Source of the DNA: a virus
Direction: 5' to 3' (one strand)
IMG/VR virus record: IMGVR_UViG_3300045391_000822
Coordinates: 32,001-96,000 of that record
DNA: 64,000 nt
A program made the position numbers and the translations under genes. Shown piece after piece: positions 14,152 through 27,369 of the stretch. The notes beneath the pieces were generated by a model. That model worked only from the letters and a program-made list of their open reading frames with translations. It ran no database searches and was not told the DNA's origin. Every line of letters starts with the position of its first letter. Within the stretch, counting starts at the first letter, position 1.

Positions 14152-14235
14152 AGTTGTGCTGTAGCTCAGAGGCCGAGTAGCCTTACCATCAAATCGACGT
14201 AAGGCCGACGTGGGTTCGATTCCCACCAGCACTCC
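14152..14235 (+). tRNA. atypical tRNA-like RNA (7-bp anticodon stem, 12-nt loop, no CCA)
   Basis: Canonical T arm GTGGG-TTCGATT-CCCAC, a D arm and a GTGCTG/CAGCAC acceptor, but anticodon arm GCCTTAC-CATCAAATCGAC-GTAAGGC. Confidence 0.7.
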
Positions 14236-14237
14236 CT

Positions 14238-14313
14238 AGCACCTTAGCTCAGTCGGTAGAGCAGCGGCTCGATAAGCCGTAGGTCGTAGGTTCGAACCCT
14301 ACAGGTACTACCA
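14238..14313 (+). tRNA. tRNA-Ile(GAU)
   Basis: Cloverleaf, loop TCGATAA (C33), CCA. Confidence 0.9.
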
Positions 14314-14560: not shown

Positions 14561-14636
14561 TGGCTAGTAGCTCAGTTGGTAGAGCGGCGCACTGTTAATG
14601 CGTTGGTCGCTGGTTCGATCCCAGCCTAGCCAGCCA
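14561..14636 (+). tRNA. tRNA-Asn(GUU)
   Basis: Cloverleaf, loop CTGTTAA, CCA. Confidence 0.95.
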
Positions 14637-15113: not shown

Positions 15114-15195
15114 GGATCCATCGCATAATGGTATTGCAGTGGATTGTAAATCCGCCACCCTTTGGGTATTGTTGGTTCGAGTCCAGCTGGATCCA
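15114..15195 (+). tRNA. tRNA-Tyr(GUA), no encoded CCA
   Basis: Loop TTGTAAA, long variable arm; acceptor stem continued by a 16-bp flanking inverted repeat. Confidence 0.9.
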
Positions 15196-15220
15196 CAGAA
15201 CGTATTCTGTAAATGTTTGA

Positions 15221-15296
15221 TGCGGGGTAGCTCAGTTGGTAGAGCGGAGGTTTCATACGCCTCTTGTCGTGGGTTCGAGTCCCACTCCCGCTACCA
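15221..15296 (+). tRNA. tRNA-Met(CAU), initiator-like 1:72 mismatch
   Basis: Loop TTCATAC, U1:U72 mismatch, CCA. Confidence 0.88.
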
Positions 15297-15934: not shown

Positions 15935-16018
15935 GCAGACGTGGCGTAATTGGTAGCCGCGCAAGCCCGAGGAGCTTGTGACTCAGTCGTGTGGGTTCGA
16001 GTCCCACCGTCTGCACCA
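15935..16018 (+). tRNA. tRNA-Leu(GAG)
   Basis: Loop CCGAGGA (C33), variable arm, CCA. Confidence 0.9.
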
Positions 16019-16041
16019 ACCCAATGTATCAAAGAAGTACC

Positions 16042-16118
16042 AGGAGTATAGCTCAACTGGTTAGAGCAATCCCCTTTTAAGGGATAGGTTCTGGATTCGA
16101 GTTCCAGTACTCCTACCA
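16042..16118 (+). tRNA. tRNA-Lys(UUU)
   Basis: Loop CTTTTAA, CCA. Confidence 0.93.
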
Positions 16119-16125
16119 AACATAC

Positions 16126-16210
16126 GCGGGCATGGCGAAATTGGTAACCGCACCAGGTTTAGGTCCTGACGCCTTTAGGCTTTCCGGTTCGAGTCCGGAT
16201 GCCCGTACCA
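16126..16210 (+). tRNA. tRNA-Leu(UAG)
   Basis: Loop TTTAGGT, variable arm, CCA. Confidence 0.93.
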
Positions 16211-19079: not shown

Positions 19080-19165
19080 CCATAGTTGGTAGCGTTGGAC
19101 GTCGATATCCAAATAATCCTGTTGGATCCGGATCACAGGTTGGATACCAGCGTTACCAACTATGG
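19080..19165 (+). ncRNA. rod-like hairpin RNA upstream of tmRNA
   Basis: 19-bp CCATAGTTGGTAGCGTTGG/CCAGCGTTACCAACTATGG stem with inner TATCCAA/TTGGATA and CCTGT/ACAGG. Confidence 0.55.
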
Positions 19166-19467
19166 TAGTAGGTGACCTAAAGGTTACGAGAGTGAGAAAT
19201 GAATGGCGGTAAGACGCGGGTTCGATTCCCGCCGGCTCCACCATACACGCCTTGTCTTCATGAAGCACGCCTTAACAGGACGTGTATGATGGGGCTGACA
19301 TGGATTCGATTATCGTGCTGAAGTGGACGCAACTACCCGGGCAAGCGGAGCCCGCTGACCTAGGTCAGGAATACCAAGCAAAGAAGATAAATGCTAACGA
19401 CAGCATCTTTGAGCAGCGCCTCGCGGCCTGATCACATAGTCCCTAGTAAACTGGATAGTTGATAACG
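19166..19467 (+). ncRNA. ssrA: circularly permuted (two-piece) tmRNA; tag (A)ANDSIFEQRLAA*
   Basis: The acceptor piece ends GACGCGGGTTCGATTCCCGCCGGCTCCACCA (19243). An intervening hairpin follows, then the 5' piece GGGGCTGACATGGATTCGA (19291) with G3-U70. Resume context ATAAAT|GCT; tag at 19393-19431. Outer boundaries are approximate. Confidence 0.92.
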
Positions 19468-19574
19468 ATACGATTCCAGGGAGCTAGGTGGGGCCACCGT
19501 GTACCTAGTACACCTGTGTCAGAAACCTACCTTGTCAGATAGGAAGAGTGGCCCACCTCCAGGTTAAGATAATC

Positions 19575-20371: not shown

Positions 20372-20444
20372 CTCGCGTGGTCAGGTAGGTTATGTGATGG
20401 ATTGCAATCCATCTAGACTGGTTCGATTCCAGTACGCGAGTCCA
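20372..20444 (+). tRNA. tRNA-Cys(GCA), non-canonical anticodon loop size
   Basis: CTCGCGT/ACGCGAG, U73, CCA; GATGGA-TTGCAA-TCCATC. Confidence 0.82.
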
Positions 20445-21011: not shown

Positions 21012-21125
21012 ATGGAGTCGCTTTTCAACTACTTGGTGGCGAGGGCTATCGGTTACTTCCAGACTTTGAATCTGACCAAAACACCGTTGCTAATTATTCC
21101 CCAAGTAGCTGAAAAGCGATTCCGT
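21012..21125 (+). ncRNA. Y-RNA-like unit 1 (minimal; Gln-UUG anticodon stem-loop)
   Basis: ~24-bp closing stem, GGTGGCGAGG...GGTTACTTC-[CAGA-CTTTGAA-TCTG]...ATTCCCC. Confidence 0.78.
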
Positions 21126-21140
21126 AAATAACTGTGAAGA

Positions 21141-21313
21141 AGTTATCTTTGATTCTAGCAGTGGCGTAGCTGTGCAGTTACTTCGACTGTTAATCGAGTG
21201 GTCGCAGGTTCGAGTCCTGTCACTGCGTAAGTGGTGTAGCTCAGTTGGATAGAGCACTTGGCCGAAAGGCCGTTCCTGCAGGCGAGGGTTCCCTGCTAGA
21301 ATCAAAGATAATT
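21141..21313 (+). ncRNA. Y-RNA-like unit 2 (YrlA-like permuted tRNA module, Asn-GUU loop)
   Basis: 21-bp closing stem; AGTGGCGTAG...GTTACTTC, loop CTGTTAA, T arm, acceptor capped by GTAA, D arm, GTTCCCT. Confidence 0.88.
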
Positions 21314-21314
21314 T

Positions 21315-21473
21315 AGACTGTTATGATGTGTGCGGTGGTGAAGTATACGATTCCATCTCAACCAGTGGGTCGCGGGTTCGAGTCCCGTCTATCCGTCAGG
21401 ATAGTAGATCAGTTGGTAGATCAACCGGCAATTAATCGTACACGATTGTTCCCCGCACACATCATAGCAGTCT
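21315..21473 (+). ncRNA. Y-RNA-like unit 3 (YrlA-like)
   Basis: 21-bp closing stem; GGTGGTGAAG; T arm GCGGG-TTCGAGT-CCCGT, CTATCC-GTCA-GGATAG, D arm TAGATCAGTTGGTAGATC; TTGTTCCCC. Confidence 0.86.
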
Positions 21474-21487
21474 CAGAGTTTTAGTTT

Positions 21488-21633
21488 AGCAGTGGCGTAG
21501 ATAACAGTTACTTCGCATGGAAAGCCGGTACCGTAAGGTTGCGCTAGTTCGAATCTAGCCCCTCCCAAATCTGTGGGAGGGTAGGGAAGTGGATAAACCC
21601 GCCGTAACGTTCTGTTGTCGTTTGTTCCCTGCT
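21488..21633 (+). ncRNA. Y-RNA-like unit 4 (permuted tRNA-Ser mimic, GGA loop, long variable arm)
   Basis: AGCAGTGGCGTAG...GTTACTTC-GC-ATGGAAA-GC, variable arm ACC-GTAA-GGT, T arm, capped acceptor, Ser-type D loop, TTGTTCCCTGCT. Confidence 0.86.
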
Positions 21634-21635
21634 TT

Positions 21636-21711
21636 ACATCCATCGTCTAGAGGCCTAGGACACTGCCCTTTCACGGCAGGTACGCGGGTTCGAATCCCGC
21701 TGGGTGTGCCA
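21636..21711 (+). tRNA. tRNA-Glu(UUC)
   Basis: Loop CTTTCAC, Glu-type D arm, GCCA. Confidence 0.93.
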
Positions 21712-21781
21712 GTTTAGGCTCCTTGTTTCACGGACATGCTAGTCCGAGGTTTTGAAACTGGAACAAGGAGTCCTTCTTAGT

Positions 21782-21891
21782 TTTGCAGTGGCGTAATTAA
21801 TCGAGTTCATCGCTAATTGGATAAGCACTGGGGCTTGGTCCCAGTTTAGTGGTTCGATTCCACGCTCTCGATAATGTCTGTTCCCTGCAAA
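21782..21891 (+). ncRNA. Y-RNA-like unit 5 (non-permuted D-anticodon-T module)
   Basis: TTTGCAGTGGCGTAA...GTTCCCTGCAAA enclosing GCT-AATTGGATA-AGC, ACTGGG-GCTTGGT-CCCAGT and GTGG-TTCGATT-CCAC. Confidence 0.8.
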
Positions 21892-21902
21892 TTGATTTAT
21901 GT

Positions 21903-21978
21903 GGTGCGTTAGCTCAGTTGGTAGAGCGCTGGATTGTCTATCCAGAAGTCAGGAGTTCGAGCCTCCTACGCATCGCCA
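21903..21978 (+). tRNA. tRNA-Asp(GUC)
   Basis: Loop TTGTCTA, GCCA end. Confidence 0.93.
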
Positions 21979-22073
21979 AGTTTGGACCACCAGCTTGTTA
22001 ACTGAATCTGATTCATATGGCTCAGCGCGCTAGTGACCAGCTTTTTTGTAGAAGCTGGTGGTCCTACTAGTTT

Positions 22074-22189
22074 GGTAGTGGCGTAGTTAGTCGGTTACTT
22101 CTTTGCAAGAGAATGCTAGGTTCGATTCCTGGTGCGGCCGGAAGGCTGTAGGCATGGCGCCAACTACCCGACAACGTTTGTTCCCTACC
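22074..22189 (+). ncRNA. Y-RNA-like unit 6 (permuted module, Cys-GCA loop)
   Basis: GGTAGTGGCGTAG...GGTTACTTC, TTCT-TTGCAAG-AGAA, T arm, GCGGCC-GGAA-GGCTGT, short D arm, TTGTTCCCTACC. Confidence 0.84.
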
Positions 22190-22372
22190 TACCCTGTCTC
22201 TGTTTCTGCCTGACGCAGAGATACGCGCTGTCAAGTTCTTGTAGACCCGGTGGGGCCGGCACCTATGAGGATTTGACAGCGCATCTTTTTGGGGTTGGTG
22301 AGGAAGTTGAACGTCTACGAACTACCGAAGTTCGTTCTTTCATCTGTCACTCTTCACTACAAAGGAGCCAAA

Positions 22373-23845
22373 ATGGCCCACCTCAACCGTAAAGCTGATC
22401 CGCATCGTAAAGCGGTAACCAAAGAATCTGTCCTTAACAATGCTCCGTTCGAGCAACTTTCCCGTGCAGTGATGACCTGCCTGCTGTGGGAAGGTACTGA
22501 AGACGAACGCATATCCAAGCTCGTTCCCAGCGTTCCGCTGGAAGATGTAGCGTACCTGGCACGGACGGCACATGAAGATATGAAGCTGCGCCATGTGCCG
22601 CTACTCCTGGCTCGGGAAATGGCGCGCCATCCAGGTCGTGTGGAAAATCCTTCCGTCATCGCGAACACGATTGAAGCGGTTATCAACCGTCCTGATTCAT
22701 TGACGGAATTCCTGGCTATCTATTGGAAGGATGGACGTCAGCCATTGTCAGGCCAGGTAAAGAAAGGTCTGGCTCGCGCATTTGCAAAATTCAGCGAGTA
22801 TCAACTAGCGAAGTACAATCGTGATCACGAAGTGAAGTTGCGCGACGTGCTCTTCCTTTCACATGCAAAGCCGAAAGACGTTGAACCTGGTTCTGCTTTG
22901 TGGAATAAGGATGCGCGTACCAACTACAAACCAAACAAGGGGTTTGTACGCGAGTTCACGAAAGGCGAACTCCTGTATGGTCGAGTAGTTCACGATCAGT
23001 TGGTTTCCCCAGAAACGTGGGAAAACAAGCTGTCACGCGGCAAAGACAAGAAAGAAACGTTTGCTGATTTGATGAAGAGTGGTAAGTTGGGAGGCCTGGC
23101 TTTCCTGCGTAACCTGCGCAATATCAAAGAAGCCGGCATATCTAAGGATGTGGTCAATAGCTATGCAGATGTAGCCAAGGTTGATGGAATCCTGCCTTTC
23201 CAGTTCATGTCTGCGCAACGTGCAGTTCCTGAATGGGAAGATGCCATCGAGAAGATGATGCTCCGCGCAGTGGAGAACATTCCCAAACTACCAGGACGCA
23301 CGGTGTTGGTTGTGGACTTGTCGGGTTCCATGAGAGCGCAGATGGCAGATAAGTCGGGATTGGAACGTACTGATGTAGCGGCAGCATTCAGTGTTCTGTG
23401 CCGTGAACTGTGCGAGAACATTGCAGTGTTTGCTACGGCAGGTAACGACCATAGCCGGAAGCACGCTACGATAACTGTTCCGCCGCGTCGTGGATTTGCT
23501 TTGGCAGAAAAGCTGCGTGTTGGTGGAGATCAAGAAATCTATCGTCGCATTGGCCAAGGCGGTATTTTCCTTAAGCAGGTTACGGAGTTCGTTTCTGGCA
23601 CCCTTGGTGATCAAGATGTCGAACGTTGTATCGTCATCACTGACGAACAGGATACGGATATCGACGGAACTTCTGCGAAAGCAAAGTTGATCGGTAAACA
23701 CAACTACATCGTCAACATCGCGACGAACGCTCGAGGTATCGGTTACGGACGTTTCACCCATATCAATGGATGGTCCGAAGCTGTACTGAAGTTCATCGCA
23801 GCCTATGAAGCGAACGAAGAAACGATGCACAAAGGTGCAGCTTAA
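22373..23845 (+). CDS. rsr: Ro60/Rsr TROVE-vWA RNA-binding protein
   Basis: LRHVPLLL, KYNR, LRDVLFLSH, TWE..LS and LGGLAFLRNLRNI (TROVE); VVDLSGSM MIDAS and ITDEQ (vWA); RBS AAGGAG before the ATG at 22373. Confidence 0.93.
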   Translation: MAHLNRKADPHRKAVTKESVLNNAPFEQLSRAVMTCLLWEGTEDERISKLVPSVPLEDVAYLARTAHEDMKLRHVPLLLAREMARHPGRVENPSVIANTIEAVINRPDSLTEFLAIYWKDGRQPLSGQVKKGLARAFAKFSEYQLAKYNRDHEVKLRDVLFLSHAKPKDVEPGSALWNKDARTNYKPNKGFVREFTKGELLYGRVVHDQLVSPETWENKLSRGKDKKETFADLMKSGKLGGLAFLRNLRNIKEAGISKDVVNSYADVAKVDGILPFQFMSAQRAVPEWEDAIEKMMLRAVENIPKLPGRTVLVVDLSGSMRAQMADKSGLERTDVAAAFSVLCRELCENIAVFATAGNDHSRKHATITVPPRRGFALAEKLRVGGDQEIYRRIGQGGIFLKQVTEFVSGTLGDQDVERCIVITDEQDTDIDGTSAKAKLIGKHNYIVNIATNARGIGYGRFTHINGWSEAVLKFIAAYEANEETMHKGAA

Positions 23846-27010: not shown

Positions 27011-27086
27011 GCTAGAGTGGCTCAGCGGCAACAGCACTCGCCTTGTAAGCGAGCAATCGTGGGTTCGAGTCCCACCTCTAGCACCA
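27011..27086 (+). tRNA. tRNA-Thr(UGU)
   Basis: Loop CTTGTAA, ACCA end, CGTAAATA motif upstream. Confidence 0.94.
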
Positions 27087-27108
27087 GCCCTAGCAATAAG
27101 GAAGATCC

Positions 27109-27369
27109 ATGGGAAGTATCATAGTCACTATCAAGGACTTGAAGATTGCGCTAAAGAATACAGCGAAGCGTGGTCGTGTTGTTGAACATACGCCAGGCCT
27201 ATTACTAATCAGCGTACCAAAAAGTAAGTTGGTAGAAGTAGAAGAGTATCTTAGGATGCATCTGCCTTACAGCGTCAGATTCGACCTCAAGCCTCTGAAG
27301 ATTTGGGATACGTTTTTCCTGTGGACAGTTAAGCATCGCAACATATCCACTTTCGGAGAAACGTTTTGA
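27109..27369 (+). CDS. hypothetical protein, paralog of 6111..6350
   Basis: Shared E.TPG...VP motif. Confidence 0.6.
   Translation: MGSIIVTIKDLKIALKNTAKRGRVVEHTPGLLLISVPKSKLVEVEEYLRMHLPYSVRFDLKPLKIWDTFFLWTVKHRNISTFGETF

What the first reader, a model, noticed from the sequence alone, without database searches (positions are those of the whole stretch)
21180..21605. Y units 2 and 4 can rebuild a complete anticodon arm from a split stem
Seen: right after TACTTC both units have a 2-bp hairpin closing a 7-nt anticodon-type loop (GA-CTGTTAA-TC; GC-ATGGAAA-GC). The next 3 nt (GAG; CGG) can pair with the 3 nt after the downstream D arm (CTT; CCG). That gives 2+3 = 5 bp, a full anticodon stem with the Ro scaffold attached at a break in its 5' strand. 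In unit 4 the GGA anticodon, long variable arm and Ser-type D loop all agree on Ser identity. Acceptor stems are capped by loops, so they cannot be aminoacylated. Known: canonical YrlA lacks an anticodon loop. Inference: these are whole-tRNA mimics that display a specific anticodon.
Basis: partly seen in the sequence, partly recalled or inferred. Interest (0 to 1): 0.8.

Follow-up and report, generated by a model that had tools for sequence, protein, structure and literature searches.

The report
Y RNAs carrying full anticodon arms
Two of the six small RNAs encoded beside this phage's Ro60-type gene are rearranged copies of a whole tRNA, including an anticodon loop held on a stem built from two separate strands. 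The same design recurs in dozens of phages and bacteria with a fast-changing "anticodon", which points to a bait for proteins that read tRNA anticodons.

Summary
Units 2 (21140-21314) and 4 (21483-21635) belong to a six-unit Y-RNA array directly upstream of a phage rsr/Ro60 gene (22373-23845). Each is a YrlA-type permuted tRNA mimic: T arm, loop-capped acceptor stem, D arm. Each also carries a hairpin with a 7-nt anticodon-type loop right after the conserved UUACUUC.

I collected 46 distinct homologous units from phage Rsr loci and 36 from bacterial loci.
- **Loop signature:** in the phage units, U33, A38 and a purine at 37 are invariant.
- **36/37 coupling:** positions 36 and 37 change together (U-A or G-G).
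- **Split stem:** covariation shows the two nucleotides after the hairpin (42-43) pair with the two nucleotides after the D arm (27-28).
- **Break position:** it is usually 28/29, giving 2+3 bp.
- **Rearranged in silico:** 68 of 69 units are called tRNAs. Unit 2 comes out as Asn(GUU) and unit 4 as Ser(GGA).
- **Anticodon turnover:** the triplet changes about five times faster than the rest of the RNA.

The function (bait or sensor for anticodon-reading proteins) is inferred and untested. This scan has already noted bare anticodon hairpins on Y-like handles in other phages. The whole-tRNA, split-stem class is what this report adds.

The parts
22373..23845 (+). rsr / Ro60-like gene (490 aa), directly downstream of the Y-RNA array
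   Evidence: Pfam TROVE PF05731 at 56.2 bits against a cut-off of 23. Also found by the search of the window's own genome. 38-57% identical to Rsr of 386 IMG/VR contigs. The DxSxS MIDAS-type residues are invariant in A1.
21140..21314 (+). Y unit 2, whole: long closing stem, GGCGTAG handle, UUACUUC, complete permuted tRNA-Asn-like module, extra GGCC-GAAA-GGCC hairpin, UUCCCUGC 3' handle
   Evidence: Fold energy -71.8 kcal/mol, z = -4.6. The hairpin with the 7-nt loop appears in both the MFE and the centroid structure. R1 model 75.2 bits. Rfam YrlA matches the core locally at 44.8 bits.
21184..21198 (+). Unit 2 anticodon-arm mimic: C29-G30-A31 / loop CUGUUAA (21187-21193, anticodon GUU) / U39-C40-G41, then A42-G43
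   Evidence: Sequence. The 17-mer TTCGACTGTTAATCGAG is identical in Caulobacter phage CcrColossus and Xanthomonas phage Tabio.
21256..21259 (+). Unit 2 post-D strand: A26, then C27-U28 pairing with G43-A42. U at 21259 could pair with G41 as G.U, in competition with C29.
   Evidence: Covariation of the homologous columns 20:113 and 21:112 in A4. Independent-pair test.
21199..21255 (+). Unit 2 tRNA body: variable loop UGGUC, T arm (21204-21220), acceptor stem CACUGC-GUAA-GUGGUG (21221-21236, GNRA-capped), UA, D arm (21239-21255)
   Evidence: T and D helices are 98.6-100% paired with compensatory changes. After in-silico de-permutation ARAGORN calls tRNA-Asn(gtt).
21483..21635 (+). Y unit 4, whole: same handle, permuted tRNA-Ser-like module with a long variable arm
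   Evidence: Rfam YrlA scores only 17.8 bits. Fold z = -1.66, and the MFE structure does not draw the 2-bp hairpin. No homologue was found.
21515..21528 (+). Unit 4 anticodon-arm mimic: G30-C31 / loop AUGGAAA (21517-21523, anticodon GGA) / G39-C40, then C41-G42-G43
   Evidence: Sequence. C29 of UUC cannot pair with C41, so the 3+2 variant applies. The same variant is seen in L076:3539, L269, L298, L275:1868 and L309:2096.
21601..21604 (+). Unit 4 post-D strand: G26, then C27-C28-G29 pairing with G43-G42-C41 (three Watson-Crick pairs)
   Evidence: After de-permutation with these pairs ARAGORN draws a full tRNA-Ser(gga) cloverleaf.
21529..21600 (+). Unit 4 tRNA body: 14-nt variable arm (ACC-GUAA-GGU), T arm 21543-21559, acceptor stem CCCUCCC / 8-nt cap / GGGAGGG 21560-21581, UA, 3-bp D stem with 11-nt loop 21584-21600
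21315..21478 (+). Y unit 3: canonical YrlA-type unit with no anticodon hairpin. Its anticodon stem is formed entirely between the 5' strand and the post-D strand.
   Evidence: Rfam YrlA 50.3 bits, E = 6e-10, full model length. R1 42.2 bits.
21012..21125 (+). Y unit 1: short unit carrying only a hairpin CAGA-CUUUGAA-UCUG (21060-21074), a Gln(UUG)-type loop
   Evidence: Short units carrying such hairpins recur in other loci.
21782..21892 (+). Y unit 5: same handle, but the tRNA-like module is in native (non-permuted) order
   Evidence: Weak Rfam tRNA-Sec match, 20.9 bits.
22066..22190 (+). Y unit 6: handle, UUC-UUUGCAA-GAG hairpin (22099-22111), T arm, GGAA-capped acceptor stem, no recognisable D arm

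Best explanation
Units 2 and 4 are Ro60/Rsr-partner Y RNAs of the YrlA type whose effector module is a complete, circularly permuted tRNA mimic.

Beyond the known T arm, loop-capped acceptor stem and D arm, they carry an anticodon arm. Its stem is assembled around a three-way junction. The two pairs nearest the D stem (27-28 with 42-43) use the strand that leaves the D arm, as in canonical YrlA. The distal pairs (29-31 with 39-41; 30-31 only in unit 4) and the 7-nt loop come from a hairpin placed right after the conserved UUACUUC of the 5' handle strand. The Ro-binding stem branches off at that nick.

Shown here: the architecture, its conservation, and the anticodon-loop signature (U33, R37, A38, coupled 36/37).

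Inferred: the RNA tethers Rsr to, or competes for, a protein that reads a whole tRNA including its anticodon loop. The most likely candidates are tRNA-targeting nucleases (bait or decoy, or damage sensor) or position-34/37 modification enzymes. Each unit of the array would present a different 'anticodon'.
For: **Context**
- The array lies directly upstream of a TROVE/Ro60 gene.
- Rfam YrlA matches units 3, 2 and 4 below threshold.

**Recurrence**
- An R1 model built without either competing pairing finds 46 distinct such units in 100 phage sources and 36 in 80 bacterial Rsr loci.
- Cultured phages carry them too: Tabio, CcrColossus, RHph_TM30.

**Loop signature**
- T33 46/46, A38 46/46, R37 46/46, no G32.
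- Positions 36/37 are U-A in 35 and G-G in 9.
- G36 and G37 change together in about 9.4 of 10 phylogenetically independent pairs and never in opposite directions, p about 0.004.

**Split stem**
- In the structure-blind alignment A4, 42:28 is paired in 43/43 (AU 21, GC 12, CG 6, UA 3, GU 1).
- 43:27 is paired in 41/43, and 29:41 (5' strand) in 40/43.
- The whole structure has 98.7% of cells paired, against 25-43% when partners are slid.
- Independent pairs: G42/C28 9 same, 0 opposite (p about 0.004); A42/U28 6 same, 0 opposite.

**Whole-tRNA geometry**
- After in-silico de-permutation 68/69 units are called tRNA by ARAGORN, each with its anticodon equal to loop positions 34-36.
- Unit 2 comes out as Asn(gtt) and unit 4 as Ser(gga), the latter with a long variable arm and a 3-bp D stem.

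**Anticodon as the variable business end**
- At least 53 anticodon changes on a 76-leaf Rsr tree.
- Of 41 unit pairs at least 85% identical outside positions 34-37, 35 differ in anticodon.
- Per-site differences are 0.62 / 0.53 / 0.44 at 34-36 against 0.10 in the body.

**Closed acceptor**
- Caps are mostly GNRA or UUCG tetraloops on 6-8 bp, i.e. selected to stay closed.

**Literature**
- YrlA is modified by tRNA enzymes, and its tRNA-like module has no known partner (PMC4201824).
- A phage Ro60-like protein has been reported to counter a defence system (PMC11482910).
Against: - No experimental datum exists for any of these units: no transcript ends, probing, Rsr binding or modification data.
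- Unit 4 has no homologue in about 190 loci, so its own pairs rest on analogy. Its MFE fold does not draw the 2-bp hairpin, and its z-score is only -1.66.
- A contiguous stem using UUC remains compatible in 34/43 (28:42) and 30/43 (27:43) sequences. It is what RNAfold draws for unit 2, so the two forms may alternate.
- The two loop-closing pairs (30:40, 31:39) and the 7-nt loop length were selection criteria for the set, so their 100% is by construction. The R1 profile also mildly favours T33 and A38.
- Function: no conserved protein neighbour other than Rsr in phage loci, and no RtcB in this record.
- The class is also common in bacterial contigs (41/80 loci), so a purely phage counter-defence role does not cover all cases.
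Confidence: 0.72

Rival explanations
1. The anticodon-like hairpin is an ordinary contiguous stem-loop. UUC of the handle pairs with nucleotides 41-43 (TTCGA/TCGAG in unit 2), and the nucleotides after the D arm stay unpaired. The tRNA mimic is then nicked at 26/27 rather than inside the anticodon stem. Alternatively, the RNA switches between this form and the split form.
For: - RNAfold draws a 4-bp UCGA/UCGA hairpin in unit 2.
- ARAGORN and the Rfam tRNA model use TTCGA/TCGAG.
- Nucleotides 41-43 are GRG, complementary to UUC, in most units; 28c:42 is paired in 34/43 and 27c:43 in 30/43.
- Short units without a tRNA body form UUC(N)-loop-(N)GAA hairpins.
Against: - Column 42 is C or U in 9 of 43 sequences, where it cannot pair with U of UUC, yet it pairs by Watson-Crick with the post-D nucleotide. 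All changes against UUC are one-sided because UUC never varies.
- Post-D pairing shows two-sided changes in independent lineages.
- It fails for unit 4, where C29 faces C41.
Confidence: 0.12
2. The hairpin is a leftover or a spacer. It could be the 'less-conserved V stem-loop' already drawn in YrlA models, or a relic of the tRNA genes from which the module arose. In that case it has no anticodon-specific role, and the module acts only as a stable, nuclease-resistant tRNA-shaped fold.
For: - Chen et al. [quoted passage not shown]
- Tandem tRNA junctions score with the R1 model, so an origin from tRNA dimers is plausible.
- Many units in the same arrays lack the hairpin (31 of the 77 best hits).
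Against: - A true 5-nt RGGUC variable loop lies between position 43 and the T stem, so the hairpin is not at the variable-arm position.
- U33, R37 and A38 are invariant across deep divergence while 34-36 turn over at least 53 times.
- Positions 36 and 37 change together.
- The triplet evolves about five times faster than the body in near-identical units. That pattern fits a maintained loop frame with a selected variable triplet, not decay.
Confidence: 0.1
3. After RNase P (and 3' trimming) opens the capped acceptor stem, the unit becomes a two-piece RNA with a free CCA end. It could then be aminoacylated and act in or on translation while tethered to Ro.
For: - M. smegmatis YrlA with a 7-bp acceptor stem is cleaved by RNase P and gains CCA in vivo (PMC4201824).
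- Unit 4 has a 7-bp stem, an 8-nt non-tetraloop cap, a long variable arm and a GGA anticodon.
Against: - Most class members, including unit 2, have 6-8 bp stems closed by GNRA or UUCG tetraloops.
- No CCA is encoded after the 3' strand in units 2 or 4.
- S. Typhimurium YrlA is not cleaved (PMC4201824).
Confidence: 0.04
4. Unit 2 contains a genuine tRNA-Asn gene (ARAGORN call at 21157-21228).
For: - ARAGORN calls tRNA-Asn(gtt).
- The Rfam tRNA model scores 28.3 bits, just under its 29-bit threshold.
- GCAGTG of the handle is complementary to CACTGC.
Against: - The 'D arm' is 3 bp with no GG.
- The handle/acceptor complementarity is absent in the Tabio homologue, which shares the identical anticodon arm.
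- CACTGC pairs locally into a GNRA-capped stem followed by a perfect D arm.
- The phage already has a high-scoring tRNA-Asn at 14561 (70.6 bits).
- 19 of 83 such units draw spurious ARAGORN calls.
Confidence: 0.02

Closest known systems
YrlA (Y RNA-like A; Rfam RF02553; Chen et al. 2014 PMC4201824; structure in Wang et al. 2018, 10.1101/312249, PDB 6CU1)
   Same: - Encoded next to rsr.
- A 5' G-rich Ro60-binding motif followed by YUAY.
- A circularly permuted tRNA-like module: variable loop, T arm, loop-capped acceptor stem, D arm.
- The strand leaving the D arm pairs with the strand entering the variable loop.
- Unit 3 of this array is of this canonical type.
   Different: - Described YrlA 'lacks the anticodon loop': its anticodon stem simply continues into the Ro-binding stem.
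- In units 2 and 4 only 2-3 bp of that stem remain. A hairpin with a 7-nt U33/R37/A38 loop is inserted in the 5' strand, making a three-way junction and a complete anticodon arm.
- No unit reaches the Rfam gathering score.
- The handle reads GGCGUAG rather than GNCGAAN0-1G.
Deinococcus radiodurans Yrn1
   Same: A Ro-bound Y RNA with tRNA-like features. Chen et al. note a potential 'anticodon arm' with a 5-bp stem.
   Different: - Its loop has 6 nt, it has no variable arm and only a partial D arm, and the module is oriented differently.
- The authors consider it to have evolved independently.
- No anticodon-loop signature or variable triplet has been described.
Short Y-like units that carry only an anticodon-type hairpin
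   Same: The same handle (GGYGWAG ... UUACUUC ... UUCC), the same 7-nt U33/R37/A38 loops, and an anticodon that varies between relatives.
   Different: - They have no tRNA body, and the stem is contiguous, using UUC and GAA.
- These are AI notes of this scan, not published work.
- Units 2 and 4 combine the arm with the full L-shaped body through a split stem.
Other tRNA mimics with anticodon-domain mimicry (TYMV tRNA-like structure; tmRNA-SmpB)
   Same: An L-shaped tRNA fold used outside decoding, with the anticodon domain imitated.
   Different: Those have free CCA ends and are aminoacylated. Here the acceptor end is closed and the RNA sits on a Ro60-binding handle.

Membership tests
YrlA (Rfam RF02553) | Reaches the Rfam gathering score (69 bits) | tested here: not met
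   Unit 3 scores 50.3 bits, the unit 2 core 44.8 bits (local, model positions 24-84) and unit 4 17.8 bits. There are no matches at gathering threshold.
YrlA (Rfam RF02553) | Encoded adjacent to an rsr/Ro60 gene | tested here: met
   The array at 21012-22190 ends 183 nt upstream of the TROVE gene at 22373-23845, on the same strand.
YrlA (Rfam RF02553) | Permuted tRNA-like module: T arm, loop-closed acceptor stem, D arm, in that order | tested here: met
   T and D helices are 98.6-100% paired with compensatory changes in 43 homologues.
YrlA (Rfam RF02553) | 5' Ro60-binding motif GNCGAAN0-1G followed by conserved YUAY | tested here: inconclusive
   Units 2 and 4 read GGCGUAG (U in place of the first A), then UUAC eight to nine nucleotides later. 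Relatives read GGYG(A/U)AG. Binding was not tested.
YrlA (Rfam RF02553) | Physically bound by Rsr | not testable with these tools
   Needs immunoprecipitation from infected cells.
YrlA as structurally described (6CU1) | No anticodon loop; the anticodon stem continues into the Ro-binding stem | tested here: not met
   Units 2 and 4 and 80 homologues carry a 7-nt loop hairpin in the 5' strand. Unit 3 does meet this feature.
tRNA (Rfam RF00005) | Contiguous cloverleaf with a free acceptor end; reaches 29 bits | tested here: not met
   The best native match is 28.3 bits, with a degenerate D arm. Acceptor stems are loop-capped.
tRNA (fold only) | All four arms with canonical lengths once the order is restored | tested here: met
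   ARAGORN de-permuted units, each with the expected anticodon. Unit 2 gives Asn(gtt) and unit 4 gives Ser(gga).
Anticodon stem-loop | 5-bp stem, 7-nt loop, U33, purine 37 | tested here: met
   The five stem pairs are drawn from two strands, each paired in 40-43 of 43 sequences.

The most novel reading that the evidence does not exclude
The Y-RNA arrays next to rsr are a diversifying panel of anticodon baits. Each unit presents one tRNA anticodon arm, here on a complete tRNA body, to a specific anticodon-directed enzyme such as a defence or toxin nuclease. The Ro60 RNP then sequesters that enzyme, senses its cut, or channels the cut RNA to decay or repair. Under this reading, the rapid, coupled turnover of positions 34-37 records an arms race over which tRNA is under attack.
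Probability: 0.3. Interest if true: 0.9.

Novelty: new variant of a known kind. Interest (0 to 1): 0.75.

Why it matters
The partner and purpose of the tRNA-like module of bacterial Y RNAs have been open since 2014. The published description states that the module has no anticodon loop.

A widespread subclass that keeps a complete anticodon arm changes the search. The frame of the loop is invariant, positions 36 and 37 are coupled, and the triplet is hypervariable. Together these point to proteins that read anticodon loops: anticodon nucleases, the t6A/m1G37/queuosine modification enzymes, and synthetases.

Testing is practical because cultured phages carry such units: CcrColossus, the Xanthomonas phages of the Tabio group, and Rhizobium phage RHph_TM30.

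The three-way-junction solution is also a new way of wiring a tRNA mimic onto a protein-binding handle. In addition, it explains spurious 'tRNA' annotations in phage genomes.

Tried and rejected
- **Handle pattern scan of IMG/VR.** Scanning for GGCGTAG-N8-9-GTTACTTC returned almost only chance or unrelated matches. Only one locus, L076, was kept.
- **Homologues of unit 4.** None appeared in INPHARED, in about 106 phage Rsr loci, or in 80 bacterial loci. Other long-variable-arm units (e.g. L003:3184) lack the hairpin.
- **MFE folding.** It supports the unit 2 hairpin but not the unit 4 hairpin. I treat this as uninformative for a 2-bp helix that would need coaxial stacking.
- **RNA-repair link.** There is no RtcB in the 155.6-kb record, which is only about 66% complete.
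- **Conserved protein partner.** Clustering ORFs from the phage loci found nothing conserved besides Rsr and its out-of-frame shadows.
- **Literature.** The 2020 Annual Review on bacterial Ro60 is not held, and the supplements of Chen et al. 2014 are not held. I therefore could not check whether their drawn 'V' stem-loops include such loops. The M. smegmatis YrlA primer sequence in that paper shows only 8 nt between CUUC and the variable loop, so it has no hairpin.
- **Real tRNA-Asn reading for unit 2.** Considered and rejected; see the rival explanations.
Full report
**Where this is.** The window is part of a 155.6-kb IMG/VR virus record, about 66% complete. It carries about 20 tRNA genes and a permuted tmRNA. 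At 22373-23845 (+) lies a 490-aa TROVE/Ro60-like gene, PF05731 at 56 bits. The 1.2 kb upstream (21012-22190) holds six units sharing one handle: closing stem, GGYGWAG, upper stem, (G)UUACUUC, a variable module, upper-stem 3' strand, UUCC. These are interleaved with tRNA-Glu and tRNA-Asp. The Rfam YrlA model matches unit 3 end to end at 50.3 bits. It matches the T/acceptor/D core of unit 2 at 44.8 bits and unit 4 at 17.8 bits. All are below the 69-bit gathering score.

**Checking the observation.** In both units the order after UUACUUC is:
- a short hairpin with a 7-nt loop (CUGUUAA in unit 2, AUGGAAA in unit 4);
- three nucleotides;
- a variable region (UGGUC in unit 2, a 14-nt arm in unit 4);
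- the T arm;
- a loop-capped acceptor stem;
- UA and the D arm;
- one nucleotide;
- three nucleotides complementary to those after the hairpin.

There the UUC of the handle can also pair with GAG, giving a contiguous 5-bp stem. ARAGORN (tRNA-Asn at 21157-21228) and the Rfam tRNA model (28.3 bits) use that stem.

**Relatives.** BLAST against cultured phages showed that the 17-mer TTCGACTGTTAATCGAG is identical in two other places. One is a unit upstream of the TROVE gene of Caulobacter phage CcrColossus. The other is in Xanthomonas phage Tabio and its relatives. CcrColossus also has a Gln-type unit that its record annotates as 'tRNA-Gln'.

I fetched about 106 IMG/VR loci encoding Rsr homologues at 38-57% identity; 386 such loci exist. 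A regex and anchor parse already showed a sharp class. In it the T stem starts 17-19 nt after UUC, and the interval reads as 2-3 bp, a 7-nt loop, 2-3 bp, 2 nt, and RGGUC.

I then built a covariance model (R1) from 32 such units. I gave it only the T arm, the D arm and the two loop-closing pairs, so it favours neither competing pairing. It found 122 matches in 100 sources. Of the 77 best, 46 distinct units have the 7-nt-loop hairpin; I call these 'class II'. The others are canonical YrlA-like units without it, such as window unit 3. Low-scoring hits include junctions of tandem tRNA genes, and I excluded them.

**Is the loop anticodon-like?** In the 46 phage units:
- position 33 is T in 46, position 38 is A in 46, position 37 is a purine in 46, and position 32 is never G;
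- positions 36/37 are U-A in 35 and G-G in 9.

The same holds in 36 distinct units from 41 of 80 Rsr loci on bacterial contigs, mostly Acidobacteriota MAGs, some of them prophages. The loop length and the two closing pairs were my selection criteria, so they prove nothing. The other positions were not selected.

On an Rsr protein tree of 76 loci, G36 and G37 change together in about 9.4 of 10 phylogenetically independent pairs and never in opposite directions, p about 0.004. From general knowledge of tRNA biology, U36-A37 and G36-G37 are the contexts of t6A37 and m1G37. That link is a lead and was not tested here.

**Split or contiguous stem?** I used a MAFFT alignment of 43 units made without structural information (A4).

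| Pair | Paired | Detail |
|---|---|---|
| 42 with second nt after position 26 (post-D 28) | 43/43 | AU 21, GC 12, CG 6, UA 3, GU 1 |
| 43 with first nt after position 26 (post-D 27) | 41/43 | |
| C (or U) preceding the hairpin (29) with 41 | 40/43 | |
| UUC with 42 (contiguous model) | 34/43 | one-sided changes only |
| UUC with 43 (contiguous model) | 30/43 | one-sided changes only |

The whole structure has 98.7% of cells paired, against 25-43% when partners are slid. The contiguous alternative fails exactly where 42 is C or U. Independent-pair tests give G42/C28 9 same and 0 opposite (p about 0.004), and A42/U28 6 same and 0 opposite.

The consensus is therefore a split anticodon stem. Pairs 27-28 come from the strand leaving the D arm. 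Pairs 29-31 come from the 5' strand. The Ro-binding stem leaves at the nick.

Wherever 41 is C, and so cannot pair with C29, the post-D nucleotide 29 is G. This holds in L076:3539, L269, L298, L275:1868, Rhizobium phage RHph_TM30 (L309:2096) and window unit 4. There are too few independent events for a formal test. Unit 2 can do either (C29-G41 or U-G41), and the contiguous form may be an alternative conformer.

**Whole-tRNA mimicry.** I restored tRNA order in silico: acceptor 5' strand, D arm, 26, 27-28 from the post-D strand, 29-43 from the hairpin, variable loop, T arm, acceptor 3' strand. ARAGORN then called 68 of 69 units as tRNAs, each with its anticodon equal to loop positions 34-36.
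- Unit 2 becomes tRNA-Asn(gtt).
- Unit 4, joined 3+2, becomes tRNA-Ser(gga) with a 7-bp acceptor stem, a 3-bp D stem, a 5-bp anticodon stem and a long variable arm.

In native order, 19 of 83 units still draw an ARAGORN tRNA call. That explains the 'tRNA-Gln' and 'tRNA-Thr' annotations in phage records.

Acceptor stems are 6-8 bp and mostly closed by GNRA or UUCG tetraloops, so closure looks selected. M. smegmatis YrlA, with a 7-bp stem, is nevertheless cut by RNase P and gains CCA (PMC4201824). Unit 4, with 7 bp and an 8-nt cap, cannot be declared uncleavable.

**The triplet is the variable part.**
- The anticodon changes at least 53 times on the 76-leaf Rsr tree.
- Of 41 unit pairs at least 85% identical outside positions 34-37, 35 carry different anticodons. 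L044 and L047 are 98% identical with GUU-A against GUG-G. L287 and L288 are 97% identical with UGU-A against CAG-G.
- In 34 pairs at least 85% identical outside the whole 7-nt loop, per-site differences are 0.62, 0.53 and 0.44 at 34-36, 0.32 at 37 and 0.12 at 33, against 0.10 in the body.
- Bodies do not follow the anticodon, so the triplets change in place rather than by capture of new tRNAs.
- Position 36 is U or G in 76 of 82 units. In phages GCU, GUU and UGU dominate. In the bacterial set CAG and GAU dominate.

**How it most likely works.** Three things are shown here: a conserved architecture, a conserved anticodon-loop frame, and a fast-evolving triplet.

One step follows from established knowledge. 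Y RNAs are modular. One end binds Ro60/Rsr and the other tethers or regulates an effector. The YrlA tRNA-like module is recognised by tRNA enzymes, but its partner is unknown (PMC4201824; 10.1101/312249).

The rest is inference. A complete anticodon arm on a closed, non-chargeable tRNA body is best explained as a recognition surface for a protein that reads the anticodon loop in the context of the whole tRNA. Candidates are tRNA-targeting nucleases (bait, decoy or damage sensor), position-34/37 modification enzymes, or synthetases. The rapid turnover of the triplet fits a conflict scenario. So do the phage setting next to a tRNA array, and a report that a phage Ro60-like protein counters a defence system (PMC11482910).

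Against a purely phage-centred story:
- the class is common on bacterial contigs;
- there is no conserved protein neighbour in phage loci;
- there is no RtcB in this record.

I put the structural claim at about 0.85 and the bait/sensor function at about 0.3-0.35.

**Comparison with the known.** These are YrlA-like by context and by the permuted T/acceptor/D module. They fail the Rfam threshold, and they contradict the published description that YrlA lacks an anticodon loop. Chen et al. mention a 'less-conserved V stem-loop' upstream of the T arm, interpreted as the variable arm. I could not see their figures or supplements. In the class described here a genuine 5-nt variable loop follows position 43, so the hairpin sits at the anticodon-arm position and not the variable-arm position.

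I found no paper describing anticodon loops on Y RNAs. What is added here:
- the whole-tRNA class with a split stem;
- its covariation support;
- the 36/37 coupling;
- its presence in bacteria.

**Verdict.** This is a new variant of a known kind (YrlA-type Y RNAs).

Noticed in passing
window 19151-19522: A circularly permuted (two-piece) tmRNA inside a phage tRNA array. Rfam tmRNA_permuted scores 83.5 bits at 19182-19431, and ARAGORN calls a permuted tmRNA with tag ANDSIFEQRLAA.
   Followed up: no
window 21012-21125: Y unit 1 carries only a Gln(UUG)-type anticodon hairpin (CAGA-CUUUGAA-UCUG, 21060-21074) and no tRNA body. In other loci, 18 of 106 short units have a 7-nt hairpin with U33/R37/A38.
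   Followed up: partly
window 21782-21892: Y unit 5 has the same handle, but its tRNA-like module is in native order (D arm, 5-6-bp hairpin with 7-nt loop GCUUGGU, T arm). The Ro stem therefore extends the acceptor stem. Weak Rfam tRNA-Sec match, 20.9 bits.
   Followed up: no
window 22066-22190: Y unit 6 has a UUC-UUUGCAA-GAG hairpin (or UUCU-UUGCAAG-AGAA), a T arm and a GGAA-capped 7-bp acceptor stem, but no recognisable D arm.
   Followed up: no
L003:2673-2740 (Caulobacter phage CcrColossus) and Xanthomonas phage 10KY502B (hit H15): Public records annotate 'tRNA-Gln' and 'tRNA-Thr' over units of this Y-RNA class. ARAGORN makes such calls on 19 of 83 native units, so phage tRNA counts near TROVE genes are probably inflated.
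   Followed up: partly
L307:4400-5030 (Bacteroides phage crAss001, downstream of TROVE gene gp96): The 900-nt gap after the crAss001 TROVE gene contains four copies of the ACTTACTTC / GTTACTTC handle motif, two followed by T-arm-like GGTTCAAGTCC / GGTTCGAGTCC. These are probably unannotated Y RNAs in a model gut phage.
   Followed up: no
L227-L306 (bacterial Rsr loci), e.g. L263:3791-5353, L260:48-1562: 29 of 80 bacterial rsr loci have an AAA+ ATPase neighbour on the same strand; one representative is BCS1-like. No such neighbour is conserved in the phage loci.
   Followed up: partly
window 14184-14272, 15150-15255, 15973-16161, 27033-27159: Junctions between tandem tRNA genes (the 3' half of one plus the 5' half of the next) score 30-40 bits with the permuted-unit model R1. 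This is a caution for searches and a hint at how such modules could arise.
   Followed up: no
window 20372-20444: ARAGORN reports a tRNA of undetermined identity with a two-base 'anticodon' (a 6-nt loop) just upstream of tRNA-Ser(gct).
   Followed up: no
class II units in L002-L306: Loop position 36 is U or G in 76 of 82 units. So almost only 'anticodons' for codons starting with A or C are displayed, always with A37 or G37 respectively.
   Followed up: partly
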